Below are positions 11,931 to 64,000 of a stretch of DNA of 64,000 nt, piece by piece. Position 1 is the stretch's first letter. Every line of letters starts with the position of its first letter. Where the stretch lies: the NCBI GenBank assembly GCA_000146465.1, contig CP001952.1; one strand, given 5' to 3'. A program made the translations under genes and the position numbers. The notes beneath the pieces are model-generated. The model was given only the letters and a program-made list of their open reading frames with translations. It did not search any database and was not told where the DNA came from.

Positions 11931-12389
11931 CTAGGATATGATAAATCTCACATGCTCTTGCAATATGGGGATGTCCATGTCTTCAATAAACTTCCCTAGG
12001 GACTCGGAATATAGTCGAATCACATCATCCATAGGGCTTCTTATGCTTCTTTCCATTGCCGATTCGTTAAGATCCCGGAGTTCCTTGAAGATCCTCTCCA
12101 CAAAATTGAACATTCGGAAGGCCTCGTTGAAGTAGAGGGAATCTGCCGGTGCCGCCTTCAGAATCTCTTGAAAATATCCTTTAATTCTTTCCTCTAGATC
12201 CTCAACAGTCTCCATCCGAGGCGCCTCCTCAAGTCTTTCAAATATCCCATTTCCCGTCCTGCTTGTAAACAGTTTAAATGTGTCCTCCCGGACAATGAGG
12301 TCCATAACCCTATAAAGCATCATTCTAGGGGCTAAAACCAAGCTCAAAATACCAATATACATTACAAGTTTATTTAAAATGACATACAT
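11931..12389 (-). CDS. Hypothetical small acidic protein. The true start is probably an internal Met, because the ORF-track start overlaps the neighbouring Myb gene by 16 nt.
   Basis: ORF only. No motifs recognised. Confidence 0.3.
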   Translation of the reverse strand: MYVILNKLVMYIGILSLVLAPRMMLYRVMDLIVREDTFKLFTSRTGNGIFERLEEAPRMETVEDLEERIKGYFQEILKAAPADSLYFNEAFRMFNFVERIFKELRDLNESAMERSIRSPMDDVIRLYSESLGKFIEDMDIPILQEHVRFIIS

Positions 12390-12988
12390 ATCCGCAGAAG
12401 GGCTTGGCTGGCAATCTCATCCATCTCATCAAAGTCGTCCTCGTCCAAGGACCCTCCATTAGGGACGTATTCCGGAAGATTCTGGACACTGATGCTTCTC
12501 TTGGTTTTCCGGCCCATGTCCCCTTTCTGAAGCCCAAAGCCATACTCACCTTTCTCCTGCGTTATCCCATGAGCCTTCTGAAATTCATCAATCGAACAGA
12601 ACATACTTCTTCTCCTTACCTTCTCGCTTCTCCTTTGTATCGACGAATTCCAATAATTCTTTATTGCATTATCCGTCCTTCCAGGAAGATACTTGGCTAT
12701 CTCCGACCATCTGTTGCCAAATTTCGAATGAAGTTCAATTATCAGTGCCTCCTCCTCTACAGTAAATGGTTTCTTTGTGATTTGTGGGTTAAGATGGTTA
12801 TGCCATCTCTCTCTACATTGCTTTCCAACTCTACTTCCAAGCCTCTTTGCAATAAACGACCAGTTCTTAGGGGAAAACTCCTTTACCAACTTTAATAGCT
12901 TCTCGTCCTCCTCATGCCTCCATGGACCCTTGACTAACTTGATGTTTGCATCCTTCTGATTCTGTGATAACTGATCCAACGAAGCCAT
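12374..12988 (-). CDS. Myb-type (R2R3 SANT/Myb repeats) DNA-binding protein
   Basis: Two Myb repeats with the regularly spaced tryptophans: KGPWRHEEDEKLLKLVKEFSPKNWSFIAKRLGSRVGKQCRERWHNHLNP, then KKPFTVEEEALIIELHSKFGNRWSEIAKYLPGRTDNAIKNYWNS. Confidence 0.8.
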   Translation of the reverse strand: MASLDQLSQNQKDANIKLVKGPWRHEEDEKLLKLVKEFSPKNWSFIAKRLGSRVGKQCRERWHNHLNPQITKKPFTVEEEALIIELHSKFGNRWSEIAKYLPGRTDNAIKNYWNSSIQRRSEKVRRRSMFCSIDEFQKAHGITQEKGEYGFGLQKGDMGRKTKRSISVQNLPEYVPNGGSLDEDDFDEMDEIASQALLRICMSF

Positions 12989-13471
12989 GAAATGGCACAG
13001 GGATTAAGGTTTATATTCTTTTGTTTACAAAATTAAATTTGGTGATATATTTGACACAATTTTGACTCCAAGATTTAATCATTCCCCAAATTACAAATAA
13101 ACTTATATGAGCCTGAACTTTTCAAGGCAGATGGAATAGATTCCACTCCATCCATTTTCTGTTAATCCCTTCAATTCTCCCCAAGGCTTTTCTTCCTATG
13201 TCTGTCTCTTCAATTCCAAAAAGGAACCATGTAATGAATTAGTACCGGGAGATTCTTTAATAAAAATTACTATTACATGGTATATGGGCGCCAAAGCCCA
13301 GTCTTCCTAAGATTCCCACTTTCCCAAACTAGTAAATTTTAATTGTTGCGGGAAAAGCTACAAGCCTGGCACACTGAAGATTGGAAACTGCATTTATTTT
13401 GGATCTTTCTATAATCAGTTTAGAAGGTATCAACCTTCAAGTACTGAAATAAATAGTACAGTCTTCTTACT

Positions 13472-14599
13472 TTAAATTCTATCTCTATAATACTCATATT
13501 CTCCATTTCTAAAGCACTCCACTACATATGAGACAATCCTTTCGACATCCACTTCCTTGGAATCCAAGGCTCCTATAAACTCAATGAGCTGCTCGCCCTG
13601 AAGCTCCAGTATTTTTTTTGCAAAGAACCTGAGGATGGCTGCAGCAAAGAACATAAAAACAGAGAAATCGAAGAACAGGAAAAAATCCCACATTCTTAGA
13701 GCCAACTTGATATCAAACCTTGTAAATAGCGTCAAATACCAGCCCACGGCATAAACCCCGATATCTATGCTCTGATGTAGTAGATGGCCATACACCTCAG
13801 GTATTAAAGCCCGGAAAATCTCATCCTGCACTCTCTGCACCCGAGGAACCTTGCTCAGCTTCTTGTCAAACAAGGCTTCTAGATTGTTGTTCTTGATGAT
13901 GCTGACAAGCATCTCAAAGGCTTCTTCCTCAGGGAAATACATTAAGAGCAATGCTGCAGCACTGGACATTCCTTGGCAGTATCCAACCTCCGGATTGTAA
14001 TTTGAGTATGCTGTAAGGATATTGAACAATTCGCATTGCCCTCTTCCATATTCTCTGCTGAAGAGACAGTGTCTTCGGAAAGTCCTCTGAACATCCACAT
14101 GGATCTGATGCTCATATCCACTCCTTTTTGATATTAGACTTGAGTAACTGAATCCCGAGGCCTTGGGAGTAAACAGTCCCCATAATCTGTACTTCAGGGA
14201 GAGAGGAATTCCTTGGTATATCAATCTTCTCGCAGCCTCGCTTCTTCGCAGCTTTTCTCCATTATTTTTGCATCTTGCTATGAGATCGTACCATTCGTTT
14301 TTGATGGAGACGGGATTGTCTCTGGCCTGGGAGTTGAAGCTATCTACAACGAATCCATACTCGTTTGTGCAAAAAATCTCTTCGGACATACTATTGGCAT
14401 TGTAGAGATCTCTTATGCATCTTTCGTTCTTCATGTTGTTTTCGAGCCGCATTTTTATAAATAGAGGATCTGAAACATCAAGAAAAGGCTGATTGCCCTC
14501 CAGATAGATGTGTTGTAACTCTTTGAAGTCCCTGCCCCGTGACACATGTGTAGAGTCCGGCCTGAAAATCTTGTCTGCTAACGCCTTGGACTGAAACAA
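13472..14599 (-). CDS. TBC-domain Rab GTPase-activating protein
   Basis: 375 aa. Carries the TBC arginine-finger (IHVDVQRTFRRH) and glutamine-finger (YCQGMSSAAALLLMY) motifs. Confidence 0.75.
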   Translation of the reverse strand: MFQSKALADKIFRPDSTHVSRGRDFKELQHIYLEGNQPFLDVSDPLFIKMRLENNMKNERCIRDLYNANSMSEEIFCTNEYGFVVDSFNSQARDNPVSIKNEWYDLIARCKNNGEKLRRSEAARRLIYQGIPLSLKYRLWGLFTPKASGFSYSSLISKRSGYEHQIHVDVQRTFRRHCLFSREYGRGQCELFNILTAYSNYNPEVGYCQGMSSAAALLLMYFPEEEAFEMLVSIIKNNNLEALFDKKLSKVPRVQRVQDEIFRALIPEVYGHLLHQSIDIGVYAVGWYLTLFTRFDIKLALRMWDFFLFFDFSVFMFFAAAILRFFAKKILELQGEQLIEFIGALDSKEVDVERIVSYVVECFRNGEYEYYRDRI

Positions 14600-16537: not shown

Positions 16538-17395
16538 ACTTTGGTTGCATTTTGCGGTTTGATTTATTATATTTAGAAGAAACAGAACTTTCTTGGACAC
16601 TTCCAAGTAATCCCTTCTTTCAGGAGATGTTTGCTGGATGTTAATTATCTTTTCCGGAAGGACTTGGCAGTGCACAGCCAATAATCGTCGATTTCATGGC
16701 GGGTGCTGTGAGTATTTTCTTTTTTTGCTTATGTGATAGCCGAACGATGCGGACTGTTTCTAGGGAGGGGAGTTCTGATGGCCTTGGCGAATAGTAAACC
16801 CCTGCATATCTCTCGTTCATCTTATCGAGTGTTATTCTTGTTAACATTTTCTCTTCTTTGTTTTTACTCCCCTTGGGCTTATTTTGTTTTATATAGACAT
16901 ATGCTTCTGGAAAGTTCTATTGGTACAAACTATCTACTAAGGGTTTCATTGGTTAAAAAGAGGGCAGTGAATCTAAAAAAATCATAGGGCTAGGAGTTTT
17001 ACAACCGGTATAAAAAAGTAAAAAAAAGGCACCCCACTTACCACGTGGAGATGAAACAGCCTTCATGCGGTTTTCATCGTGAATGTCCAATTCTCACTAC
17101 ACAAAATGGAGCAATGGGCATTCATCTGGGCAACACCCTCCACACAATTTCTTTCCTGGGAGATTAAGCAAGATCTGCTTTCTCCTTATTATCTAAGGTT
17201 TGTATCTTTTCCAAGGCTGAGCAACTCTGGAATGGAGAGACATCTATAAGAGGCCAGGCCTGTCTTTCAGTTAACCTCCGTCTTTTAGGAGATAAGACAC
17301 AAATAAATATGTCTGATGATCCTTTACAAAAAGGAGATGCCCTTTTCAAACATTTATGAAAACACCCTTCAAATTCACCGGAATAGAAATTAGAA

Positions 17396-18982
17396 ATGAA
17401 GAGAGAAGAAATAGATGATAGTAACGATTGCCGCATCTACCACGATGACTTCCGCGGCGGCAGACATAGGCCCATATCTGCACCGCCAGTGGATAAGTTC
17501 TTCATTGAGGATGAAGTGGAGCTTGGGGATATACAAACAGATTTGAACTACTCTATTTTTTACAGAAGAAATTGTAAGAACGAGCCTCGACTGCAACCAC
17601 CGAGCTTTTTTATAAGGGGGCAAAGCGGATATTGGGCTAGCCAATATGATGACTTGATAACCAAGGCGTTCTCAAACACCGGGTTTTTTGACATAAAGGT
17701 TACTGGAGAGTCCTCTGCGGAGCTGGAAAATAACAGGTCTCTTGCAGAAAGAATTGACGAGGATTACCCGGAATCTGAGAAGAGTAGTGAGTATAAGGGC
17801 ACATCAAGAGCAACAACACCCATAGGGAATATGAATGTATTAGATACCGAGGCATTTAGTGCGATGCTAAATCTCAAGGGGGGAAAAGGAACAGAAACCA
17901 CTTCCCAAGGAAGCCGTCCCTCTCCTCCCGATGGGGGTATTGAAGGAATTCCTATGGACAGCAAGTTTCTGAGAGAGCTCCTAGAAGTATACGAGGAGCA
18001 AAGTGGAAGAGGAAGTAAAAACATATTTGGAGGTAATACCATGAAAGAGATATGTATCAATGTAAGCAAAGACCAGGAGGGAAGCAGATGCATCCAAAGA
18101 AAAATGGACAGCATTTCTAGGGAGGAGATTTCATGGTTCTTCAATAATATTGTAGAAGCGGCATCGGAATTATCTGCTAATCTGTTTGGAAACTACGTCG
18201 TTCAAAAGATTATACCTCTTTTAACCGAAGGAGAGAGAACAATATTAATAACAAAGCTGGTTGGGCAAATTCATCTTCTTTCTGTTCATCCTTATGGATG
18301 CAGAGTGGTACAAAAGCTGGTGGATGTTTCTTCGGATGTTGATTTTATCCTAGAGGAGGTAAAGGGCAACTTACTAGAACTAATAGAGGATCAAAATGGA
18401 AACCATGTTATTCAGAAATGCATAGAGAAGTGTAAAGACAGGAAAATTATCCTACAACAATTTTCCGAGAACTCTCTGTTTCTGGCCACTCACAAGTACG
18501 GGTGTAGAGTCATTCAGAGAATGCTCGAGTTCTGCAAGAAGGACGAAATCAAAGGTATTGTGGAAGTCCTCATAGGAAACATAAAGACACTTGTTGATGA
18601 CCAGTACGGGAATTATGTTATACAACATATTCTGGCAGTTGGAAAAGAAGAAGAAAGGAACCTTGTCATCGAAAGAATAATTGAAAAGAGCTATGAGCTA
18701 AGTAAATGCAAGTTCTCAAGTAACGTTGTTGAGCAATGTGTTAAGCTTTCAAACAATGGCCAAAGAGAGCAGTTTCTGGAGAAATTCTTGGAGCCTGTAG
18801 GTGGTAAGCCTGGGATGTATTCTATGTGCACCGACATGTACGGGAACTATGTTGTGCAGCGTCTGTACGATTCCTCTGGAGAAGGAGTACGGAAAGAGAT
18901 TAAGAACACACTAAGGCCTTTTGTCAAGGACCTCAAAAAATCTCCGTTTGCAAGACATATCCTCTTCAAAATCAACACATGA
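17396..18982 (+). CDS. Pumilio-family (PUF repeat) RNA-binding protein
   Basis: The C-terminal half carries about 8 PUF repeats with the characteristic spacing: FGNYVVQKII...HPYGCRVVQKLV...QNGNHVIQKCIE...HKYGCRVIQRML...QYGNYVIQHIL...KFSSNVVEQCV...MYGNYVVQRLY. Confidence 0.9.
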   Translation: MKREEIDDSNDCRIYHDDFRGGRHRPISAPPVDKFFIEDEVELGDIQTDLNYSIFYRRNCKNEPRLQPPSFFIRGQSGYWASQYDDLITKAFSNTGFFDIKVTGESSAELENNRSLAERIDEDYPESEKSSEYKGTSRATTPIGNMNVLDTEAFSAMLNLKGGKGTETTSQGSRPSPPDGGIEGIPMDSKFLRELLEVYEEQSGRGSKNIFGGNTMKEICINVSKDQEGSRCIQRKMDSISREEISWFFNNIVEAASELSANLFGNYVVQKIIPLLTEGERTILITKLVGQIHLLSVHPYGCRVVQKLVDVSSDVDFILEEVKGNLLELIEDQNGNHVIQKCIEKCKDRKIILQQFSENSLFLATHKYGCRVIQRMLEFCKKDEIKGIVEVLIGNIKTLVDDQYGNYVIQHILAVGKEEERNLVIERIIEKSYELSKCKFSSNVVEQCVKLSNNGQREQFLEKFLEPVGGKPGMYSMCTDMYGNYVVQRLYDSSGEGVRKEIKNTLRPFVKDLKKSPFARHILFKINT

Positions 18983-34105: not shown

Positions 34106-34801
34106 TTAGGAGGTCTGCTTGGTCTCTGGGAACATTTCTCCCTTTTCCTCAAAGCCAAAGTAGTTCTTTTGTATGAGACTTTGGTACATCTTCAGGGTTG
34201 TTGTAAATACCAGTCCAGCCAGTAAGAACAGAATTCCTCCAAGCAGTGCCCTTGTCCCGAAGTCTCTAGTAACTGGAAGATTCTCCTCCCCATCCTTTGG
34301 AATGATTTTTTCCTTGATATTGAAGTTGATTATTTTCCTTCTACCATCATCAATGACTCTTTTCTTTATGAGAAAAAGGTCTCTGTATCTTCTGTGGTCA
34401 ACATTGTTACGTTCCAGGGTGTTTACAATCTTGTTGTGAAGGTCAGGACTCATGTCTGCCATCTCACGGTGGATCAGGTCGTTAATACTCTCGGGATTAA
34501 TCTTAAACTTTCCTATTCTCAGAGATTTGATGGCTCCAGCAGGAGATTCAGCTTTACTTGAGTCTAAGGTAGAAAAGTCAAGATCTTTGCTCTTTTCGCC
34601 AACAATGGTCTCTTTTGAGGCGTTGTTTTCCCCAGCCTCAAGCAAGTTGGACTCACTCACGGATATCATCGAGGATTCTCCATTGTAGTCGGAATAGGCC
34701 TCCCTGTTACTTATTCTGTCTATGTATGGGATAAGATTTTGGTTGTAGTACTCTGCAATTGCAGTAACCGAGCCAAGTATTAAGAATGTATTGAATAACA
34801 T
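34106..34801 (-). CDS. Hypothetical protein with an N-terminal signal peptide and a C-terminal TM anchor
   Basis: The N-terminal MLFNTFLILGSVTAIA is hydrophobic and the C-terminal LLGGILFLLAGLVFTTTL is a TM segment. No recognisable domain. Confidence 0.4.
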   Translation of the reverse strand: MLFNTFLILGSVTAIAEYYNQNLIPYIDRISNREAYSDYNGESSMISVSESNLLEAGENNASKETIVGEKSKDLDFSTLDSSKAESPAGAIKSLRIGKFKINPESINDLIHREMADMSPDLHNKIVNTLERNNVDHRRYRDLFLIKKRVIDDGRRKIINFNIKEKIIPKDGEENLPVTRDFGTRALLGGILFLLAGLVFTTTLKMYQSLIQKNYFGFEEKGEMFPETKQTS

Positions 34802-34898
34802 TTTCGATTCATTTCATCGATATTTTAAGCACTGTTGAAACACGGGGCTAACGCGGTTTCACATCAGAGAAAAAGTTACAGTTGTATCAAAGAATATT

Positions 34899-35213
34899 TT
34901 AATTCCTGTTTTTCAATCCAGAAATTGGACCCTTAGATGCTAAACCTGAGTGTCTTCCCCTCAAGAAATGGTTGGCCGATATTTTAAAAGGACTTAAACC
35001 GCTTCTAGACACTAGGCTACTCCCTTGTTGGTCTAGGACTTCTCCTGTGTTATTGTCGTCAGATCCGCTTTCCGACGGCATAGCCATCTCGCTTCCTCCT
35101 GTGCCTTTCGTATGAGGTATATCAATGGTCTTGTTCTGATTGTTCATTAAGGACACCACAAGTGTCATGGTGGAGACAATCAGAGTTAGCAGACTTATTA
35201 TAAATTTTAACAT
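34899..35213 (-). CDS. Small hypothetical protein with a signal-anchor sequence (104 aa)
   Basis: The N-terminal IISLLTLIVSTMTLVVSLM is followed by a G/S-rich polar tail. Confidence 0.3.
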   Translation of the reverse strand: MLKFIISLLTLIVSTMTLVVSLMNNQNKTIDIPHTKGTGGSEMAMPSESGSDDNNTGEVLDQQGSSLVSRSGLSPFKISANHFLRGRHSGLASKGPISGLKNRN

Positions 35214-35259
35214 AAACTTTGCATCTTTCCAAATTAAATACTACGAATGAAACAAAGCC

Positions 35260-46656: not shown

Positions 46657-46917
46657 ATGGAATTGAAGAAGTTGAAGAAGGCAGCAAAACTTAGAAACAT
46701 CGATCAGATGATTTCTCTTATAGAAAAAATACCATCGAAGAACGCAGCGGATGCAGAAAAATTTTTGTCTGATTTCTACAATCATGAGGTATCTGTAGCC
46801 AATGCTGTCTTCGAATTAACATCATACTCAAAAATACATAAGACAAAGGTAAAACTTCCTCTCAAAGGCTGTTTCACCCTTATTATTCCAAATCCAAAGG
46901 AACGATCTGCTTTTTGA
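46657..46917 (+). CDS. Small hypothetical protein (86 aa)
   Basis: An intact ORF that fills the spacer between Spt5 and the Brix gene. No motif recognised, so it could be spurious. Confidence 0.25.
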   Translation: MELKKLKKAAKLRNIDQMISLIEKIPSKNAADAEKFLSDFYNHEVSVANAVFELTSYSKIHKTKVKLPLKGCFTLIIPNPKERSAF

Positions 46918-46967: not shown

Positions 46968-47516
46968 ATGAGAGTGTCTATATCGATTCCGCATAATCCT
47001 CATAAAGATACAACGGCACTACAAAAGGAACTCTTAGATATAATTCCAAACTCTTATGGTGGAGATCCCGATGAGAGGTCCGAGGTGATCATAAGAATAG
47101 TTGAAGATGTGGGGCCTCAGTGGATAGTTTTTAAGGATGAGAAGATACAGCTGGTTCTAAAGATAGTCCAGTACAAATCCAGAGACTATCTAAGGGTGTC
47201 CAAGCCCATTTCAAAAGATCATCCACCTCAACTCATTGTAAATAACTTCACAACAGATATAGGAATGCAGGTAGTTGAATTTCTAGCTGGTATGTTCCCA
47301 TTCCATCCAAGCTCTAGACAAGTTGTAAACTTCACCGTCCAGGGTGATTTCATCTACTTCAGATTATATAGATACTGTTTTGGGGAAAAGAGTCCTATTA
47401 TGGAGAATGTTGGGCCGCATCTGACTCTTAGGCTCTGGAAAATAATAGAATACAGTGGAAATGAGAAGAAAGTCATGAATTTCAAGAAGTTTATCAAAAA
47501 CTCAAGCATACTATGA
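46968..47516 (+). CDS. Compact Brix-domain ribosome biogenesis protein
   Basis: 182 aa. PQLIVNNFTTDIGMQVVEFLAGMFP and GPHLTLRLWKI match the Brix-domain C-terminal blocks (PLLVLNNF....F...FP; GPRFxLKLxKI). TCCCCGGAAGA lies just 5' of the ATG. Confidence 0.5.
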   Translation: MRVSISIPHNPHKDTTALQKELLDIIPNSYGGDPDERSEVIIRIVEDVGPQWIVFKDEKIQLVLKIVQYKSRDYLRVSKPISKDHPPQLIVNNFTTDIGMQVVEFLAGMFPFHPSSRQVVNFTVQGDFIYFRLYRYCFGEKSPIMENVGPHLTLRLWKIIEYSGNEKKVMNFKKFIKNSSIL

Positions 47517-51775: not shown

Positions 51776-51911
51776 GCTGCCTTGGTTGCAGAAGATACTG
51801 GAATGGAGAACATTTCAAAAATATCCCTAGGCTTGCCATCTCGGTATGTATGCACGGTTGGAGAAATTGAAACAAGATCCTGATTTCTCAAGATATTTGT
51901 TTTTATGAAAA

Positions 51912-52439
51912 ATGAAACCCACAAACCTCGTAATGGGTGAAGCTGGTTCTGATAGTGCTGCAATTAAAAGGATAAAAAAAGAATATGCATTGCTTGAAAA
52001 TGATAAGAGCGATGAGAAAAAGAAGGATTCAACATCCAAGTACATCAAGATCATTCCCTTTGTTTCAGGGGACTTGTTTACCTGGGAAGCATACCTTACG
52101 GCTCCAGAAGAAAGTGTCTACAAAGGAGGGATTTTCAAGCTTCTTATAACATTTTCAAACGAATATCCTTTCAAGCCTCCCAAGATAACATTCCAGACAC
52201 CTATCTACCATCCAAATATAAATTCTTCAGGAATGATTTGCATAGACATTCTCGGAAAAGAATGGTCTCCTGCACTTACGTTGAATAGTGTATTGTTATC
52301 TCTTCTCACCCTTCTTGATGATCCAAATGCCGATGATCCCTTGATGCCCGAGGTTGCAGATATATATAAAACGAATAAAGAAGAATACCGACTGAGATGT
52401 CAGGAATCTGCCCGAAAGGCCATGGAGAACCGAAAATAA
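51912..52439 (+). CDS. Ubiquitin-conjugating enzyme E2 (Ubc4/5-like core)
   Basis: HPNINSSGMICIDILGKEWSPALTLNSVLLSLLTLLDDPNADDPL is the UBC active site (HPNI...GxICLDIL..xWSPAL). An N-terminal extension of about 30 aa is present. Confidence 0.85.
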   Translation: MKPTNLVMGEAGSDSAAIKRIKKEYALLENDKSDEKKKDSTSKYIKIIPFVSGDLFTWEAYLTAPEESVYKGGIFKLLITFSNEYPFKPPKITFQTPIYHPNINSSGMICIDILGKEWSPALTLNSVLLSLLTLLDDPNADDPLMPEVADIYKTNKEEYRLRCQESARKAMENRK

Positions 52440-57924: not shown

Positions 57925-59094
57925 CTATTTTTGGAGACTACCTTTCGCGTTTGGAATCAAAGTGACGCCATCATGGGGAATCCTTTGGTTAGCTCCTTCC
58001 TTGAGAGAACTTCTAGTTTCGTCCTCTCTTCCTCTCTTTTCCGCCCGATTCTTGAGGAAGTCAAAGTCGTCAAGCGAAAATCCATCAGGAAGGTCTTCAA
58101 GGAATGAAGATGGTGCTATGTTATAGTCTTTACTCCGCTTAGGAGAAGCTGCATCTAGGTTTACTGAAGGCTTTTCTATTATTGCAGTGCTGAATAAATC
58201 ATTACATAGGCCATCTGTTCGATGGAGATCATACTCCAGCTGTTGATCTCCTGATGAAAACAATTTATCCTTAATGTTGAATGCGGGAAAAGCCTGTTCC
58301 AAAAATCCATTTTTCTGTATTTCCTCGAATTGCTTGTCATATATATTTGGAGATGATTTTGGAACAGATGGTGCAGTAGGTGTTTTTTTCTGCATTTGCT
58401 GGTCGAAAAGGATATCCTGCTGTGGCATCGTCCTTCCCTGGCTGTACATCATCCCCATTGGCAGGACTTTATTTTCTATCCCCCTTAAATATCGCGGGTC
58501 CACATCTCCTCCCATTCTTTTGCTATTCTGCCTTGTATGGCTTACAAATCCAACCATTCCATGAGGCAACATGCTATTTCTTGTGAGATTATTAATATAC
58601 TTATTATACGTAAATAGGTTTGTTTCCCGTCTCAAATCCCTTTCTAATGCATCACAAAACAAAGCGTCGTGTGGGACACTATACCAGTAAAAAACCTTCT
58701 GCTTCTTTTGAGTTCTTATGCAACCGTTCTTGTATAGAAACTCCAAAAACTCGCTTCTAGGACCCTCAAGCGTTGCATCTATCCCCGGTTTCAAGTTTCT
58801 CAGATCAGAAAACACTCCCTCCTCAAATTTTTTTAGACTTGTAAGGCATCTTCCAGCATTTTGGAACCTCCAAACTAGTATTTTCACTATGTCTGTCCCT
58901 GTAATGAAGAAATGCATGTTCCATAATACACAATGAATATAATCTCCATTCTTCAGCTGAAACTTCTTGATTCTTTCACCGTCCCGAAACTCCTTTGGGG
59001 CATTGGATAGAAACTCAAACAGTTCCTTATCACTTTGGGCATTCATCTTTATTTGTTTATTACCATTTGTTTTTATATCCAAGACACAAAACAA
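57925..59094 (-). CDS. STE12: STE12-like transcription factor (STE homeodomain-like DNA-binding domain)
   Basis: The N-terminus matches the fungal STE domain almost block for block: FQLKNGDYIHCVLWNMHFFITGTDIVKILVWRFQNAGRCLTSLKKFEEGVFSDLRNLKPGIDATLEGPRSEFLEFLYKNGCIRTQKKQKVFYWYSVPHDALFCDALERDLRRE. Yeast Ste12 reads ...FVSCVFWNNLYYITGTDIVKCCLYRMQKFGREVVQKKKFEEGIFSDLRNLKCGIDATLEQPKSEFLSFLFRNMCLKTQKKQKVFFWFSVAHDKLFADALERDLKRE. Confidence 0.85.
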   Translation of the reverse strand: MFCVLDIKTNGNKQIKMNAQSDKELFEFLSNAPKEFRDGERIKKFQLKNGDYIHCVLWNMHFFITGTDIVKILVWRFQNAGRCLTSLKKFEEGVFSDLRNLKPGIDATLEGPRSEFLEFLYKNGCIRTQKKQKVFYWYSVPHDALFCDALERDLRRETNLFTYNKYINNLTRNSMLPHGMVGFVSHTRQNSKRMGGDVDPRYLRGIENKVLPMGMMYSQGRTMPQQDILFDQQMQKKTPTAPSVPKSSPNIYDKQFEEIQKNGFLEQAFPAFNIKDKLFSSGDQQLEYDLHRTDGLCNDLFSTAIIEKPSVNLDAASPKRSKDYNIAPSSFLEDLPDGFSLDDFDFLKNRAEKRGREDETRSSLKEGANQRIPHDGVTLIPNAKGSLQK

Positions 59095-59522
59095 AGAATT
59101 GTTTATCTTGTTTCATATCAATATCTCCTTATGTCACTGTCCTACGCCTTCTTTCTGCCTCATCTTCCATTTCTCCCGTTTTCTAACAACGTTATAATTA
59201 AAACCTCTAAAATCAAGGGTTATATTGAAAATAAGCCCTTAATACTAACAATGCCAAAATGCTTAAAGCAAAATCTCAATCATTAAATTTTCTGAAAAGG
59301 ATACTTCTACTAGGCGTTGGATATAAAAGATGGCCTTTAGCCTAATCCATTGGCGTTAAGGGATCATCATATTCTCCTTAAGAGTTTCCATAATCGGTTA
59401 TAATTATCCCGCCTTTGCTAATTGTTTAAAAAGGACATAGCTCCTTTCAGTTTCCTTTAACCAACCAACAAAAAATGCCCGTAAATTTGAGGAGTATATA
59501 CTTGAATTTTTAGCAGTAAAGT

Positions 59523-60134
59523 ATGAGAGCTCTCAAATGTACATGTATTCTTTCGATCAAGACTATTTTGTGCATACGAGGGGGCTTTGCGCTTTTTGAG
59601 TTTGAGGATCCGCCTGAGGACAATCTAGAGAGATTTAATGGTATGACCAGCATGAAGATTTTAGAATTTATAAAAGAACAGATGGAAGATATAGAGCAAG
59701 CTGTTGATGATATCATAAATAAAAGTGAGGAAAGGAATGAAGAGGAGGAAGACGAAGATGAAGAGGTAGATGAAATGATGGAAGACGAAGATGGTTTTGA
59801 AAGCTCAAAACAAAAATCCATACTTTGTGAAAATTGTTCATGGGCTACACAAACCCTAGAACCTTGCGATATTTGTAAAGAGAAAAGAACACTAAAAGAA
59901 CTTGCATACGGACTAGTTTGTATAGGTGAAACTTTAGTAAGCGGGGAAGTTCAAGTGTGGGAAGTCAATGAAAAAATTCAATTTTTGATAGAGTCAATTC
60001 TTGTAAAAGCCATTGAAGAAGAAAAACAAGAAGATACCGTGTCTATAATGAACATAAGAACTTCACAAGCAGCGGTAGTTCAAGCCATAGTTTTTCTTGA
60101 GTCATTAGTTGGGTCTCTTGATATTTACAGTTAA
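59523..60134 (+). CDS. Hypothetical acidic protein (203 aa)
   Basis: An E/D-rich stretch (EERNEEEEDEDEEVDEMMEDEDG) and a CENCSW...CDIC pair. No recognisable domain. Confidence 0.35.
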   Translation: MRALKCTCILSIKTILCIRGGFALFEFEDPPEDNLERFNGMTSMKILEFIKEQMEDIEQAVDDIINKSEERNEEEEDEDEEVDEMMEDEDGFESSKQKSILCENCSWATQTLEPCDICKEKRTLKELAYGLVCIGETLVSGEVQVWEVNEKIQFLIESILVKAIEEEKQEDTVSIMNIRTSQAAVVQAIVFLESLVGSLDIYS

Positions 60135-60775: not shown

Positions 60776-61451
60776 ATATAATCTCCTGTATAATACTTGA
60801 AAGTGTTTTTTCTTCAAAATTACAAATTCCTTCGCAAAAACAGCCCATCAATATACCTTCATTGTTACTAAATATATGTATTAGTCCACAAGACGCTTCT
60901 TCCTCAATTCTTGTTGGATCCATCACAAAATGGCCATTGTCAAACAAAGCAACTGTTTTCGAGGTTGGGATGCTTATTTTTTGTTTTTCCGTTTCTTTCA
61001 GATTACCTACTATAGGAATATCAAGATTTTCGAGCAAAGCACCAAGACTGATAAAAAATAAATCAAAAATGTTTCCATCATTACTTAGTATGCTGAACTC
61101 TATTCTTATGCCTATTTTATATGGAGCTAGCAAATCCAAAATTATAGAGGAAATGGTATTTGGAATTGCAATTTTAGAAAATTCTATAGACTCAGCAGAG
61201 AATTCGTTTCCATCAAAGTTTTCTTTGAGTATCCCGGAAGCTTCCAGGGTTTCGGCAGTCTCCTTGAACTGTACAGATACTTCTATCTCAGATAGCCCAC
61301 GTCTAATCTTGATGCTTCCATCACTTTGTGCTATGTCTGTATGGACTACGTTTGTCCTTCTTGCTTCTCCATTCTTCCTCAGATCCGCCCGGAGTCCGTT
61401 TGCTATCCCATTTCTCACAAGCGCCAGCTCGTCCAGCCCAAAGGCTTCCAT
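60753..61451 (-). CDS. Exosome complex RNase PH-like subunit (Rrp41/42/45 family)
   Basis: 232 aa. The N-terminal LVRNGIANGLRADLRKNGEARRTNVVHTDIAQSDGSIKIRRGLSEIEVSVQ resembles the RNase PH domain-1 opening of exosome ring subunits. Length fits. Confidence 0.45.
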   Translation of the reverse strand: MEAFGLDELALVRNGIANGLRADLRKNGEARRTNVVHTDIAQSDGSIKIRRGLSEIEVSVQFKETAETLEASGILKENFDGNEFSAESIEFSKIAIPNTISSIILDLLAPYKIGIRIEFSILSNDGNIFDLFFISLGALLENLDIPIVGNLKETEKQKISIPTSKTVALFDNGHFVMDPTRIEEEASCGLIHIFSNNEGILMGCFCEGICNFEEKTLSSIIQEIISKTYLIR

Positions 61452-61868
61452 GGGCTTTCTTGCCAGGGCTTATTTCTTCCCAGACTCCCTCCTACAATCT
61501 AGCTTCTCTTGATTTTCGACTCTGTCTTTGCAAACGACTTGTCTATTCTCTTCCCAACCATCCCTCTGCTCTTGCTCTTCCTTCCACTAATCATCCGAGG
61601 AAGTGTTTTTATAACTGTAATGGCAATCACAAAAACCAGAAGGACAATGGAGAATGTGTGGAGAACTGCAATTACACTACTTCCTTCAACCCCGGGGAAA
61701 AAAGCCATTTTGAAAGGAAGTGTTTTGGATGTATTTAATAGTTTTTGATGTGTCTGGCAGAGGCCTATTGGTCACTTCTGTGCATGGGCGACCACTCATC
61801 CCGCAGAGGTGCCTTCATCCGCCGCCAGGTTGTCTGGGATGTAATCCCTTGGTGCAGAAGCCCTGGAA

Positions 61869-62669
61869 ATGGGACACCTGTGGAAGACAGCCTTGGACTG
61901 GGCAGGGGTGCTTGGACAGAATCTCAGGAAGGAGTTTGATGGCAACGCCAGGCTCAAGGATGCATGCTCGCGGATTGCAAGGGAGTGGAGCGAGTGGAGA
62001 GAAGGGGTGGAGAAGACCGGTGTGTTCTGGCTCGGACAGAGGGCTGGGGAGATATCGGGGAGAGTAATGAGGCTTTCGGATGCCTCGATGGGACTTGCAC
62101 TGGAGGCAGCAGGGATTGGGAGAGTGTGGCGGGGACAGAGGGAGTTCCAGAAGAGACTGAACAGGATGTTCAGGATTCCGCAGTACTACGGAGGGATCCG
62201 GAAGAGTGAGGGGGAAAGCGGCAGAGACAGGAGGGCCGGGGGACTGGTCCAGTTCAGGCCCAGCCTCATGGGAATGGGATGGAGAGTTTACTCTTGGATC
62301 AGGCGGGGATTTGGAGTGGGGTGGAATGACCTGGACATAGAAGAGATCGAGAATGAGCAGCTGAGCAGGATATTTGAAGGGATGGAAGGACAGGGGGAGT
62401 CTGGGCCATGGACGGAGGAGGGGGCGGCAGACATTCACAGCCTGTGGAAGGAGATAGGGGGTTCTGGGATGTCTGTTGTAGACATCAGGAATGTCTCGAC
62501 GGTGGGGAGTATTGGGAGACGGAGGCTTGAGTCTGGATTTGAAGTGGAGATTGCAGGACAGAAGGGGGGGAAATGGACCAGACATGTGTTTGTGATGCAG
62601 GCGGTGTTTGAGCGCGGGGCAGACGGGAGATGGAGTCTCGGCAGACTCAGATGGACAAGGGTAGGATAG
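61869..62669 (+). CDS. ORF of uncertain coding status in the GC-rich, purine-skewed segment. The predicted protein is G/R/E/W-rich and low in complexity.
   Basis: 266 codons. It is divergent from the exosome gene and convergent with eL35 at a 22-nt spacing, which fits the local packing. However, the antisense strand also carries a 256-codon P-rich ORF (61815-62585), so the open frame may be compositional. Confidence 0.25.
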   Translation: MGHLWKTALDWAGVLGQNLRKEFDGNARLKDACSRIAREWSEWREGVEKTGVFWLGQRAGEISGRVMRLSDASMGLALEAAGIGRVWRGQREFQKRLNRMFRIPQYYGGIRKSEGESGRDRRAGGLVQFRPSLMGMGWRVYSWIRRGFGVGWNDLDIEEIENEQLSRIFEGMEGQGESGPWTEEGAADIHSLWKEIGGSGMSVVDIRNVSTVGSIGRRRLESGFEVEIAGQKGGKWTRHVFVMQAVFERGADGRWSLGRLRWTRVG

Positions 62670-62690
62670 GACAAGATGGAAGAATGCAGT

Positions 62691-63059
62691 TTATTCATTA
62701 TAGGCAAATATGACTTTCGGGAATTTACGCTCTTTGGCTCTCTGTCTTGCTGTTTTCCTCCTGAGCTGGTGCTTTGTGAGGGCCTGTCTCTTTGCCCTGT
62801 TGAGCCTGGGCCTGAGGATGTTTGGGAGCTTGTGGACAGGAATCCCCTTGTACTCGTCGACCAGCTTCTCAAGAATCTTCTCGCGGCGGATGGTGAGCAG
62901 ACGAGCCAGATTCTTCCTGGTTGTCTTGATGTCGTCCTCTCCGACATCTCCACTGTTCTTCTTCTGGCGGAGGGCTGCCAGGTCGGCCTTGATCTCCCTG
63001 GCCTTCTCCTCGAGCTGCTCAACACTCAGCTGCCTGAGCTCGGATGCCTCGATCTTCAT
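62691..63059 (-). CDS. RPL35: 60S ribosomal protein eL35 (uL29 family)
   Basis: MKIEASELRQLSVEQLEEKAREIKADLAALRQKK...IKTTRKNLARLLTIRREKILEKL...KYKGIPVHKLPNILRPRLNRAKRQALTKHQLRRKTARQRAKERKFPK is collinear with eL35 (MAKIKAxELRxKSKEELLKQLxDLKxEL..LRVAK...IRVVRKSIARVLTV..). The start is set at the internal MKIEAS Met, which is preceded by GCCCTA. Confidence 0.8.
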   Translation of the reverse strand: MKIEASELRQLSVEQLEEKAREIKADLAALRQKKNSGDVGEDDIKTTRKNLARLLTIRREKILEKLVDEYKGIPVHKLPNILRPRLNRAKRQALTKHQLRRKTARQRAKERKFPKVIFAYNE

Positions 63060-63142
63060 TAGGGCTTCTGGAATGCAAAGATTTGAAGCAAAATCTGCAG
63101 GGGACAAAAACGGACAGGGAGGGCGGCAAGGAACAGGCGTGG

Positions 63143-63355
63143 TCAGAGGGTCGGGGACATGGCGACAAAGAGAATGTTCTCGCCCCTCAGAAACAGGACG
63201 CGGCCTGCAGAGTTCTGGACATCGTGGCTTTGCAGCATCAGGTTGATGTGCTCGTCAAACCCCTCCAGAGTGCCTGTATAGACATCGCCGGTCTTTGTTT
63301 TTATCTCGACCCTCTCGTTTAAGTACATCTTGAGAAAGCAGAACGGATCCAGCAT
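63143..63355 (-). CDS. Sm/LSm-fold protein
   Basis: MLDPFCFLKMYLNERVEIKTKTGDVYTGTLEGFDEHINLMLQSHDVQNSAGRVLFLRGENILFV carries the Sm1 and Sm2 motifs: V.IKTKTG..Y.G.L..FD.HMNLVL in Sm1 and RGENI in Sm2. The 273-codon ORF in the track extends upstream as read-through. The start is set at MLDP, preceded by GCCCTGCACTTCTG. Confidence 0.65.
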   Translation of the reverse strand: MLDPFCFLKMYLNERVEIKTKTGDVYTGTLEGFDEHINLMLQSHDVQNSAGRVLFLRGENILFVAMSPTL

Positions 63356-63448
63356 CAGAAGTGCAGGGCACGGTAAAATTTTCTTATGGACGGCAGAGCA
63401 CACGGGCGGAGCAGAGGCAGGATTTATGGCCGGGGCAGGCAGCCCTTG

Positions 63449-63943
63449 ATGAGATATTTGGAGATGAGCTGCATATCGAAAACAAACAAACTGTTCCAGA
63501 AGCTCCAGGACATCAATCCGCAGCTCAACATCGAGGTGGAGGCATACTCCTGCAAGTCGAGCAGGAAGCAGAGGGGACAGAGGGATGTGGAGAAGCCTCT
63601 CCGGTACCTGCAGTCTGCGCTGGGGCTGCGGTTTCCAGACTACGACTTCCATGGGGAGCCGTGGAGGTCGTTTGAAAGGAAGACGCTGGAGGAGGTGCTT
63701 CGGGAGGTGGCATATTCGATCAGCACAACACACAAGAACAGCGAGGATGTAAAGGAGTTTGTGGGGTTTCTGGAGATGATTCTGGACAGGTCGATCAACA
63801 CGGGGTCGTGCTTGATATTTTCGTACAAGAACCGGATGGGGCCTTTTGAGGACTGCTTCTGGTACTTTTCGTTCCTGCTGTTTAGCAAGAGGCAGAAGAG
63901 AGTGGTGATGCTCAATGCATTTATGAGCAGAAGCGATGTGTAA
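63449..63943 (+). CDS. MAF1: Maf1, RNA polymerase III repressor
   Basis: MRYLEM...IEVEAYSCKSSRK (Maf1 box A, ..RIEAYSCK..), then PDYDFHGEPWRSF (box B, SDYDFS), then the C-terminal GPFEDCFWYFSFLLFSKRQKRVVMLNAF (box C, LWSFNYFFYNKKLKRIV). The start is set at the Met preceded by GCCCTTG. Confidence 0.8.
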   Translation: MRYLEMSCISKTNKLFQKLQDINPQLNIEVEAYSCKSSRKQRGQRDVEKPLRYLQSALGLRFPDYDFHGEPWRSFERKTLEEVLREVAYSISTTHKNSEDVKEFVGFLEMILDRSINTGSCLIFSYKNRMGPFEDCFWYFSFLLFSKRQKRVVMLNAFMSRSDV

Positions 63944-64000
63944 ATACCTGCGGGAGCAGGACATTAAAGTTCTTAATTGAGATTGAGTGTTGTGTGGTTT

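What the first reader, a model, noticed from the sequence alone, without database searches (positions are those of the whole stretch)
57925..59522. Fungal-type STE12-like transcription factor with an unusually long 428-bp upstream region containing a TGAAACA pheromone-response-element-like heptamer
The STE domain alignment to yeast Ste12 is nearly block-identical, which places this lineage with or near the fungi. The upstream interval 59095-59522 is 4-5 times longer than typical spacers in this window. It contains TGTTTCA at 59109-59115, which is the reverse complement of TGAAACA, the Ste12 PRE consensus. This hints at autoregulation. A single 7-mer has roughly a 5% chance of occurring in 428 bp, so this is suggestive only.
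Basis: partly seen in the sequence, partly recalled or inferred. Interest (0 to 1): 0.5.

Follow-up and report, generated by a model that had tools for sequence, protein, structure and literature searches.

The report
Conserved self-binding site before microsporidian STE12
The gene is the already annotated Ste12 transcription factor of the parasite Encephalitozoon intestinalis. The TGAAACA motif in front of it is not a chance match: it sits in a 79-bp promoter block kept almost unchanged across microsporidia, which points to Ste12 switching on its own gene.

Summary
The window is E. intestinalis ATCC 50506 chromosome XI. The ORF is the annotated 'Ste12 transcription factor' (ADM12692.1, 373 aa), with a full STE domain.

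- **Start codon and spacer.** The start is ATG 59046, not TTG 59094, so the upstream spacer is 476 bp. That is 5 times the median of 95 bp and second longest of 51.
- **Conserved block.** TGAAACA (59109-59115, minus strand, -69 from the ATG) lies in a 79-bp block. The block is 96-99% identical to E. hellem and E. romaleae, against about 60% for ordinary spacers.
- **Orthologues.** The motif and a TATA-like box about 38 bp downstream occupy the same place in 8 of 10 orthologous promoters, as far as Nosema. One has TAAAACA, and a Nematocida-like contig has TGAAACTGTTTCA.
- **Other promoters.** The window has 6 intergenic copies against 1.3 expected, each 34-62 nt before an ATG. All 4 testable copies are conserved in E. 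cuniculi.
- **Fungal STE12 loci.** The motif ranks first of 210 control 7-mers upstream of 41 such loci.
- **Rest of the spacer.** The other ~400 bp show ordinary conservation, with no ORF, Rfam hit or RNA structure.

Best reading: an ancestral Ste12 autoregulatory promoter, kept in a lineage without MAP kinase cascades. Binding is inferred, not shown. The gene is known; the motif evidence appears unreported in the papers searched.

The parts
57925..59046 (-). STE12 coding sequence (373 aa, ATG 59046, stop included). It is identical to ADM12692.1 'Ste12 transcription factor' of E. intestinalis ATCC 50506.
58651..58974 (-). STE DNA-binding domain (residues 25-132). It is nearly invariant across 32 microsporidian proteins and Basidiobolus. 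The invariant stretch includes RTQKKQKVF, which holds the residues aligned to yeast K150 and K152.
   Evidence: PMC7017024 for the yeast lysines
59047..59125 (-). Ultra-conserved proximal promoter block (-1 to -79). It is 96-99% identical to E. romaleae and E. hellem and 86% to a more distant Encephalitozoon-like contig. It is largely kept in Ordospora and partly in Nosema granulosis.
59109..59115 (-). TGAAACA, the Ste12 binding consensus, at -69 to -63. It is extended as GATATGAAACA (59109-59119).
   Evidence: consensus from PMC7017024 and PMC12187013
59087..59105 (-). Palindromic element TAAACAATTCTTTGTTTTG (AAACAA / TTGTTT arms).
- It contains TTCTTTGTTT (59089-59098), which from my own knowledge equals the S. 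pombe Ste11 HMG 'TR box' TTCTTTGTTY.
- It also contains an inverted PRE-like TGTTTTG, 15 nt from the TGAAACA.
- The binding factor is unknown.
   Evidence: The core TTTGTTTTG is kept in 8 of 9 orthologues; the TR-box match is from my own knowledge.
59070..59077 (-). TATA-like box TATAAAAA at -31 to -24. A TATA-like box sits at -26 to -34 in all ten orthologous promoters.
59060..59116 (-). Upstream ORF of 18 codons (MKQDKQFFVLCLGYKNKW*) that starts at the ATG overlapping the motif. It is present in Encephalitozoon only, so it is probably incidental.
   Evidence: Its ATG is CTG in L008 and Nosema, it is 5 codons long in Ordospora, and L005 has a different frame.
59126..59522 (.). Distal spacer. 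Its conservation is at the ordinary intergenic level (49-69% to E. hellem and E. romaleae), with patchy short conserved islands. It holds no ORF, no Rfam match and no tRNA.
59523..60134 (+). Divergent neighbour gene (203 aa, no Pfam family). It is syntenic in Encephalitozoon and Ordospora. The neighbour is a different gene in three other STE12 loci.
14467..14477 (+). GATCTGAAACA, 36 nt before the RabGAP-TBC start and followed by TATTTATAAAAA. It is conserved in E. hellem and E. cuniculi.
14592..14598 (+). TGAAACA 43 nt before the tetraspanin gene start. It is conserved in E. hellem and E. cuniculi; Ordospora has TGAAACG.
34836..34862 (+). TGAAACA-N13-GTTTCAC inverted pair, 34 nt before Eint_111740. 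Both halves are conserved in E. cuniculi.
35248..35254 (+). TGAAACA 34 nt before the 104-aa gene at 34899-35213. It is conserved in E. cuniculi.
51868..51874 (+). TGAAACA 37 nt before a ubiquitin-conjugating enzyme gene (51912-52439). Its conservation was not tested.

Best explanation
The 79 bp directly upstream of the E. intestinalis STE12 start codon form its proximal promoter. The block holds three elements: a Ste12 binding site (GATATGAAACA, -69), an AAACAA/TTGTTT palindrome (-59 to -41), and a TATA-like box (-31). The rest of the block, down to the ATG, would then be a very short leader.

Proposed mechanism: Ste12 protein, whose DNA-binding domain is almost unchanged from that of other fungi, binds the TGAAACA and activates its own gene. 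This positive feedback would lock in a developmental state. The same site, placed 34-43 nt before the ATG and just upstream of the TATA/AAATTT-like signal, would mark a small set of co-regulated genes. In this window those are a RabGAP, a tetraspanin, an E2 enzyme and two unknown genes.

What is shown:
- the gene identity;
- the conservation, position and enrichment of the motif;
- the absence of any hidden gene or RNA structure in the spacer.

What is inferred:
- that Ste12 is the factor that binds the motif;
- the sign of the regulation;
- the transcription start;
- the biological role.

The long distal spacer is a conserved property of the locus in the Encephalitozoon, Ordospora and Nosema group. 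It is not explained by the motif.
For: **Gene**
- Full STE domain, 182 bits.
- Exact match to the annotated Ste12.
- The domain is invariant at 68 positions across 33 sequences, including RTQKKQKVF.

**Footprint**
- The block 59047-59125 is 96-99% identical to E. romaleae and E. hellem. The other E. intestinalis versus E. hellem spacers measured average about 60%, and the rest of this spacer is 49-69%.

**Depth of conservation**
- TGAAACA sits at -64 to -72, with a TATA-like box at -26 to -34, in Encephalitozoon (4), Ordospora (2), an unnamed JGI contig and Nosema granulosis, whose protein is only 54% identical.
- The one exception, L005, has TAAAACA. TaAAAC is reported to lose only about 20% of affinity for yeast Ste12 (PMC12187013).
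- A Nematocida-like contig with only a 111-bp spacer has the palindrome TGAAACTGTTTCA at -46/-39 and a TATA-like box at -26.

**Other promoters in the window**
- 6 intergenic TGAAACA against 1.29 +/- 1.12 in shuffles (P about 0.001). The motif is among the top 4 of 210 same-composition 7-mers.
- All six lie 34-62 nt before an ATG, in both orientations. Four are in divergent spacers that hold no 3' ends.
- 4 of 4 testable sites are perfectly conserved in E. cuniculi, where only 10.2% of intergenic 7-mers are (0.102^4 is about 1e-4). Only 2 of the 6 copies inside protein-coding sequence are conserved.

**Fungal loci**
- In 41 non-redundant fungal STE12-homologue loci, the 1 kb upstream holds 20 TGAAACA against 3.9 +/- 2.0 expected. 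That ranks first of 210.

**Literature**
- TGAAACA is the Ste12 consensus in vivo and in HT-SELEX (PMC7017024).
- The yeast STE12 promoters contain Ste12 response elements (bioRxiv 10.64898/2026.09.17.752268).
Against: - No binding or expression data exist for any microsporidian Ste12, so specificity is inferred from domain conservation only.
- There is no solved Ste12 structure to check DNA contacts.
- Yeast Ste12 normally needs two sites or a partner. Here there is one consensus site plus only a degenerate inverted TGTTTTG 15 nt away.
- 79 contiguous conserved bases are more than one binding site needs, so other factors or an RNA-level role must contribute.
- The transcription start is unknown. 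If it lies upstream of -79, the block is a 5' leader.
- Ordospora does not keep exact TGAAACA at the RabGAP/tetraspanin spacer (TGAAACG).
- The enrichment rests on one 64-kb window, on my own crude gene models, and on six sites.
- Three other same-composition 7-mers are as frequent in spacers.
Confidence: 0.6

Rival explanations
1. The block is a real promoter and TGAAACA a real cis-element, but another factor binds it, or Ste12 binds only with a partner on the adjacent AAACAA/TTGTTT palindrome. Candidate factors are forkhead- or HMG-type proteins that recognise the AAACA-rich context. On this reading there is no simple autoregulation.
For: - The block is rich in AAACAA repeats: GTAAACAAT, TTCTTTGTTT, AAAAACAAA and ATAAACAAAT.
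- From my own knowledge these resemble the forkhead site (GTAAACA) and the HMG/TR-box site (TTCTTTGTTY).
- AAACAAA and AAAACAA are also among the most often conserved intergenic 7-mers.
- Conservation extends over 79 bp, far beyond one site.
Against: - TGAAACA itself is not a forkhead or HMG consensus (my own knowledge).
- It is exactly the Ste12 consensus (PMC7017024).
- It recurs upstream of STE12 genes across fungi with unrelated flanking sequence.
- It recurs in other Encephalitozoon promoters without the AAACAA context.
Confidence: 0.2
2. The conserved block is a transcribed 5' leader that controls translation, for example through the 18-codon upstream ORF or an RNA hairpin. It would then not be a DNA-level binding platform.
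For: - An upstream ORF (59116-59060) is present in all four close Encephalitozoon sequences.
- The single-sequence fold pairs AUGAAACAAG with CUUUGUUUUG (-12.3 kcal/mol).
- Contiguous conservation is typical of transcribed elements.
Against: - The upstream ATG is not conserved: it is CTG in L008 and Nosema. The ORF has 5 codons in Ordospora and another frame in L005.
- The consensus fold energy is -0.28 kcal/mol with no compensatory pairs.
- The fold z-score is only -1.65.
- A canonical TATAAAAA at -31 in all ten species implies a start near the ATG. This agrees with the short leaders and near-ATG signals reported for E. cuniculi (PMC2803860).
- The motif occurs in both orientations at other genes.
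Confidence: 0.1
3. The long spacer hides an unannotated small gene or non-coding RNA, and the motif is incidental.
For: Another long 'gap' in this window (16538-17395) does hide a probable U1 snRNA and a small conserved ORF.
Against: - No ATG ORF longer than 28 aa lies in 59047-59522.
- No tRNA was found.
- No Rfam match was found, even at E <= 1.
- The distal 400 bp are no more conserved than ordinary spacers.
- The only strongly conserved part abuts the ATG.
- Caveat: Rfam also missed the probable U1, so absence of a hit is weak evidence by itself.
Confidence: 0.04
4. It is a chance 7-mer in a neutral spacer.
For: Window-wide counts are unremarkable: 20 against 14.7 +/- 3.8, with 12 of 100 shuffles reaching 20.
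Against: - The motif is at the same position, and in the same orientation apart from the Nematocida-like palindrome, in 9 of 10 orthologous promoters that span protein identities down to 54%.
- 4 of 4 other intergenic copies are conserved against a 10% background.
Confidence: 0.01

Closest known systems
S. cerevisiae Ste12 and its pheromone response element (TGAAACA), including response elements in the STE12 promoter itself
   Same: - The DNA-binding domain family is the same (Pfam STE, 182 bits).
- Identity is 58% to the yeast domain as I recalled it.
- The residues aligned to yeast K150 and K152 are invariant (PMC7017024).
- The consensus heptamer is identical.
- The motif is present upstream of the factor's own gene, as reported for the S. 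cerevisiae and N. glabratus STE12 promoters (bioRxiv 10.64898/2026.09.17.752268).
   Different: - No MAP kinase cascade exists in E. cuniculi to activate it (PMC2078597), so the input is unknown and 'pheromone response' does not apply.
- The protein is 373 aa, and nothing outside the STE domain is recognisable by Pfam.
- The promoter is compressed, with the site at -69 and only about 38 bp from the TATA box.
- There is a single consensus site rather than clustered sites.
SteA/Mst12-type Ste12 proteins of filamentous fungi and early-diverging fungi (for example Basidiobolus P0119)
   Same: - The STE domain is 70% identical.
- TGAAACA is over-represented upstream of the STE12 homologues found in metagenomic contigs, most of which look fungal.
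   Different: The source names P0119 a 'C2H2-type domain-containing protein', and from my own knowledge this group carries C-terminal C2H2 zinc fingers. The microsporidian protein has no zinc-finger hit. It has instead a clade-specific C-terminal tail, IPNxKGxxQK.
Microsporidian core-promoter signals (AAATTT-like / TATA-like plus CCC/GGG near the start; Peyretaillade 2009, PMC2803860)
   Same: - Regulatory information is packed within a few tens of bases of the ATG.
- A TATA-like box lies about 25-35 nt upstream of the ATG.
   Different: - Those signals are general. TGAAACA is a gene-specific upstream element and is not mentioned in that paper (no 'GAAAC' in its text).
- I see no CCC/GGG triplet between the TATA box and the ATG here (sequence).
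S. pombe Ste11 (HMG) TR box TTCTTTGTTY with autoregulation
   Same: There is a perfect TTCTTTGTTT at 59089-59098, inside the conserved block. The comparison with the TR box rests on my own knowledge.
   Different: - The full 10-mer is kept only in E. intestinalis, E. romaleae and E. hellem.
- Only TTTGTTTTG is widely conserved.
- No HMG-box factor was linked to it here.

Membership tests
STE-like transcription factors (Pfam PF02200) | Full-length STE domain scoring above the curated threshold | tested here: met
   182.3 bits against a cut-off of 25, covering profile positions 2-109 of 109. The protein is named Ste12 in NCBI.
STE-like transcription factors (Pfam PF02200) | Conservation of the lysine-rich segment needed for DNA binding in yeast (K146, K150, K152) | tested here: met
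   - RTQKKQKVF is invariant in 33 sequences.
- It aligns to yeast KTQKKQKVF, so K150 and K152 are kept and K146 is R.
Its numbering agrees with the residues named in PMC7017024.
SteA/Mst12 subtype (filamentous fungi) | Two C-terminal C2H2 zinc fingers | tested here: not met
   Pfam finds only the STE domain. The alignment shows no zinc-finger region.
Ste12-autoregulated promoter (PRE-bearing) | Consensus TGAAACA in the gene's own upstream region | tested here: met
   59109-59115 on the minus strand, -69 from the ATG.
Ste12-autoregulated promoter (PRE-bearing) | The site is under purifying selection (kept in orthologous promoters) | tested here: met
   - 8 of 10 orthologues have the exact site at the same position.
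- One has TAAAACA, and one has a palindromic pair.
- The block is 96-99% identical, against about 60% background.
Ste12-autoregulated promoter (PRE-bearing) | Two sites arranged for a Ste12 dimer, or a partner site | tested here: inconclusive
   - Here there is one consensus site plus a degenerate inverted TGTTTTG 15 nt away.
- Clear inverted pairs occur in the Nematocida-like promoter and at 34836-34862.
Ste12-autoregulated promoter (PRE-bearing) | Physical binding by Ste12 and Ste12-dependent transcription | not testable with these tools
   This needs EMSA, DAP-seq or ChIP, plus expression data.
Pheromone/MAPK response pathway | An upstream Ste11-Ste7-Fus3/Kss1 kinase cascade | not tested
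   Not examined here. The literature reports no STE-family kinases or MAP kinases in E. cuniculi (PMC2078597). So this is not filed as a pheromone-response system.
Hidden gene or structured RNA in the spacer | A conserved ORF, an Rfam or tRNA match, or a covarying structure | tested here: not met

The most novel reading that the evidence does not exclude
Ste12 plus its own TGAAACA site is an ancient self-sustaining switch that predates the split of microsporidia from other fungi. In microsporidia it has survived the complete loss of MAP kinase signalling. It now runs as an input-poor positive-feedback module that drives a small, positionally stereotyped regulon, with the site 34-43 nt before the ATG. 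The regulon would act during parasite development, for example commitment to spore formation. If so, this would be the first transcription factor-motif-target assignment in the smallest eukaryotic genomes.
Probability: 0.3. Interest if true: 0.65.

Novelty: new member of a known kind. Interest (0 to 1): 0.45.

Why it matters
Microsporidia have tiny genomes, short spacers and very few transcription factors. Almost nothing is known about how they time gene expression through their life cycle.

In the library searches run here I found no paper linking a specific cis-element to a microsporidian factor. The published promoter work describes only general TATA/AAATTT and CCC/GGG signals (PMC2803860, PMC5499648).

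Linking TGAAACA to the Ste12 domain gives three things:
- a directly testable regulatory circuit;
- a short list of candidate targets;
- an example of a terminal transcription factor kept after its signalling pathway was lost.

The gene itself and Ste12 self-regulation are well known elsewhere, so this extends known biology. It is not a new kind of system.

Tried and rejected
- **Hidden features in the spacer.** tRNA scan, Rfam at gathering threshold on the whole window, Rfam at E <= 1 on 58950-59650, and ORF listing down to 20 aa. Nothing was found.
- **RNA structure of the block.** The consensus fold has no covariation, and the single-sequence z-score is -1.65. Rejected.
- **Upstream ORF as the conserved unit.** Its start and frame are not conserved outside Encephalitozoon. 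Rejected.
- **Mini-intron reading of ATG|GTAAT...AAAG|ATG.** It would be 17 nt and is absent in L004. Rejected from the sequence.
- **Bacterial-type promoter/terminator scan.** Irrelevant for a eukaryote and not used.
- **Solved structure of a Ste12 domain.** None was found by sequence.
- **Repeat or mobile element.** The block is unique in the window.
- **Site 17052.** First counted as intergenic. It lies inside a strongly conserved block that reads as U1 snRNA, so it was removed.
- **Site 46870.** It lies in an 85-aa ORF of unknown status, so it was removed.
- **Brix gene.** I first guessed that the gene at 46968 was mis-started. The E. cuniculi gene I compared is not its orthologue, so the idea was dropped.
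- **Metagenome scan for more microsporidian STE12 loci.** It returned mostly loci that look fungal and only one microsporidian contig. The rest were reused as a test set.
- **E. intestinalis single-cell RNA paper.** Its supplementary tables are not held, so STE12 expression could not be read.
- **Look-ups ran out.** The E. cuniculi STE12 promoter and the orthologues of site 51868 could not be fetched.
Full report
**What is there**

The window is compact, intron-poor eukaryotic DNA of about 40% G+C. One window protein (34106-34801) is 100% identical to Eint_111740 of Encephalitozoon intestinalis ATCC 50506.

The protein of the finding is in the public collection, residue for residue, as 'Ste12 transcription factor [E. 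intestinalis ATCC 50506]', ADM12692.1, 373 aa. So the gene is already annotated.
- It carries a complete STE domain: PF02200, 182 bits, profile positions 2-109 of 109.
- The real start is ATG 59046. An in-frame TGA lies just upstream; it is the TGA of the TGAAACA itself (sequence).

**The observation**

The spacer to the divergently transcribed neighbour (ATG 59523) is 476 bp.
- I refined my crude ORF-based gene models using orthologue annotation.
- With those models the 51 spacers between 773 and 61451 have a median of 95 bp.
- This spacer is second longest. The longest (483 bp) lies upstream of a Myb-type transcription factor gene.
- TGTTTCA is at 59109-59115, which is TGAAACA on the gene's strand, -69 to -63 from the ATG.

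By count alone the motif is unremarkable: 20 in the window against 14.7 +/- 3.8 expected.

**Comparative evidence at the STE12 locus**

I fetched the locus from ten genomes or contigs:
- E. romaleae and E. hellem;
- two unnamed Encephalitozoon-like contigs (L004, L005);
- Ordospora colligata and O. pajunii;
- an unnamed JGI contig (L008);
- Nosema granulosis;
- a Nematocida-like metagenome contig (L010).

The upstream spacer is long in nine of them (376-953 bp). That includes L005, L008 and Nosema, where the upstream neighbour is a different gene. It is only 111 bp in the Nematocida-like contig.

Alignment shows that conservation is concentrated in the 79 bp next to the ATG.

| Segment | Identity to E. 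romaleae / E. hellem |
|---|---|
| 59047-59125 (proximal 79 bp) | 96% / 99% |
| Rest of the spacer | 49-69% |
| Other E. intestinalis vs E. hellem spacers measured | about 60% |

The block reads, 5' to 3' on the gene strand: GAT[A/C]TGAAACA, then (G)TAAAYAAT-n-TTTGTTTTG, then GATATAAAAAYAAA, then ATAAAYAAATAAAG-ATG.
- TGAAACA sits at -64 to -72 in eight of ten promoters, including Nosema, whose Ste12 is only 54% identical overall.
- A TATA-like box sits at -26 to -34 in all ten.
- L005 has TAAAACA. The TaAAAC variant is reported to lose only about 20% of affinity for yeast Ste12, whereas other single changes lose more than 95% (PMC12187013).
- The Nematocida-like promoter has a perfect palindrome, TGAAACTGTTTCA, at -46/-39.

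**Is the motif used elsewhere?**

Of the 20 copies in the window, eight fell outside my first gene models.
- One (17052) lies inside a strongly conserved block that reads as the U1 snRNA.
- One (46870) lies inside an 85-aa ORF of uncertain status.

Six remain, against 1.29 +/- 1.12 in shuffled spacers (P about 0.001). TGAAACA is among the top four of 210 7-mers of the same base composition.

| Site | Distance to ATG | Downstream gene |
|---|---|---|
| 14471 | 36 nt | RabGAP-TBC |
| 14592 | 43 nt | tetraspanin |
| 34836 | 34 nt | Eint_111740 |
| 35248 | 34 nt | 104-aa gene |
| 51868 | 37 nt | ubiquitin-conjugating enzyme |
| 59109 | 62 nt | STE12 |

The sites occur in both orientations, and four lie in divergent spacers that contain no 3' ends.

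I aligned about 40 kb of the window with the syntenic E. cuniculi DNA.
- Only 10.2% of intergenic 7-mers are perfectly conserved.
- All four testable TGAAACA sites are conserved (0.102^4 is about 1e-4).
- Only two of the six copies inside protein-coding sequence are conserved.
- The local alignments show islands of identity around the motif in otherwise diverged spacers.
- TGAAACA is the only frequently conserved intergenic 7-mer containing G, apart from the A-rich AATAAAG and ATAAAGG. The other frequent ones are made of A, T and occasionally C, and look like TATA or AAATTT signals.
- The extended form GATMTGAAACA occurs twice in the window, at STE12 and at the RabGAP promoter.

**Is self-regulation plausible?**

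- TGAAACA is the Ste12 consensus in vivo and in HT-SELEX (PMC7017024).
- The STE domain is extremely conserved. 68 positions are invariant across 32 microsporidian proteins plus Basidiobolus.
- Identity is 70% to Basidiobolus.
- Identity is 58% to the yeast domain, with the lysine-rich RTQKKQKVF segment intact.
- In 41 non-redundant STE12-homologue loci from metagenomes, most of which look fungal, the 1 kb upstream holds 20 TGAAACA. About 3.9 are expected, and the motif ranks first of 210 control 7-mers.
- A recent preprint notes Ste12 response elements in both the S. cerevisiae and N. glabratus STE12 promoters.

Together these suggest that a Ste12 site in front of STE12 is ancestral.

**What the rest of the spacer is**

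- No tRNA.
- No Rfam hit, even at E <= 1.
- No ATG ORF longer than 28 aa.
- Ordinary conservation.
- The conserved block has no supported RNA structure: consensus energy -0.28 kcal/mol, no compensatory pairs, z-score -1.65.
- An 18-codon upstream ORF exists in Encephalitozoon, but its start and frame are not conserved elsewhere.

I therefore read the block as DNA-level promoter information. I leave the length of the distal spacer unexplained. It is a conserved property of the locus in the Encephalitozoon, Ordospora and Nosema group, and it is shared in this window by the Myb gene.

**How this differs from the yeast paradigm**

- E. cuniculi has no STE-family kinases or MAP kinases (PMC2078597). 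Ste12 here has lost its canonical input, and 'pheromone response element' is only a historical name.
- The protein lacks the C2H2 fingers of the SteA type. It carries a clade-specific C-terminal tail.
- No HMG-box gene was seen in the window. This rests on the proteins scanned and on the Pfam labels of the syntenic genes; a few ORFs were not scanned directly.

**Limits**

- Binding, the direction of regulation and the transcription start are not shown.
- The regulon evidence rests on six sites in one 64-kb window and on my own gene models.
- Ordospora keeps only a one-base variant at the tetraspanin site.

**Literature**

Searches for a paper linking Ste12 or TGAAACA to microsporidian promoters found none. 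The E. cuniculi promoter study contains no 'GAAAC'. Absence from this library does not prove absence from the literature.

**Verdict**

The gene is known. The added value is that the heptamer belongs to a deeply conserved promoter module and appears to be a real, reused cis-element. I file it as a new member of a known kind (Ste12 self-regulation), of moderate interest.

Noticed in passing
window 17030-17290 (+): This block is conserved with E. hellem, E. cuniculi and Ordospora more strongly than the flanking coding sequence. It begins ccccACTTACCacg..., which looks like the Encephalitozoon U1 snRNA with its ACUUACC 5' end, described by Belkorchia et al. 2017 (PMC5499648). Rfam 15 gives no hit, even at E <= 10. 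One TGAAACA (17052) lies inside it.
   Followed up: partly
window 16641-16847 (-): A small conserved ORF (68 aa here, MLTRITLDKMNERYAGVYY...; called as 55-56 aa in E. hellem and E. cuniculi). It lies in the 858-bp 'gap' upstream of the Pumilio-family gene at 17396-18982.
   Followed up: partly
window 12989-13471, upstream of the Myb gene 12374-12988 (-): This is the longest true spacer in the window (483 bp), and it also precedes a transcription factor gene (two Myb repeats). The E. hellem counterpart (474 bp) holds a TGAAACA (L090 11205) that the window lacks. Long spacers may mark regulatory genes in this genome.
   Followed up: no
window ~61200-64000; L002 1-2000: G+C rises abruptly from about 0.33-0.39 to 0.50-0.58 and stays high across syntenic genes (a 266-aa gene, ribosomal protein L29/L35, an LSM protein). 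The same jump occurs at the same syntenic point in E. hellem. It looks like a conserved compositional domain towards the chromosome end.
   Followed up: partly
window 57925-57966 (C-terminus of Ste12): Microsporidian Ste12 proteins diverge almost completely after the STE domain. Many nevertheless end in a conserved tail, IPNxKGxxQK (Encephalitozoon, Ordospora, Hamiltosporidium, Edhazardia, Trachipleistophora and others). It is possibly a short interaction or localisation motif.
   Followed up: no
window 46657-46914 (+): An 85-aa ATG ORF with no Pfam hit lies in the 363-bp gap between the Spt5 gene and a Brix-like gene. It contains a TGAAACA (46870). Whether it is a real gene is unknown.
   Followed up: no
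window 14434-14452: The RabGAP-TBC ORF is 326 aa from the first ATG, but its orthologues are annotated at 320-321 aa. The true start is probably ATG 14434.
   Followed up: partly
window spacers generally: Three other 7-mers with the base composition of TGAAACA are as frequent in spacers (6-7 copies against a mean of 1.4): AGAAATC, AGAACAT and CTGAAAA. They may be further cis-elements.
   Followed up: no
window 59126-59522 and A1 alignment: Short islands in the distal STE12 spacer are conserved among the four Encephalitozoon sequences. Examples are TTTTAATTACAACGTTG, an AAGGGY...RCCCTT inverted repeat, and ATTGGTTGACT near the neighbour's start. Their function is unknown.
   Followed up: no
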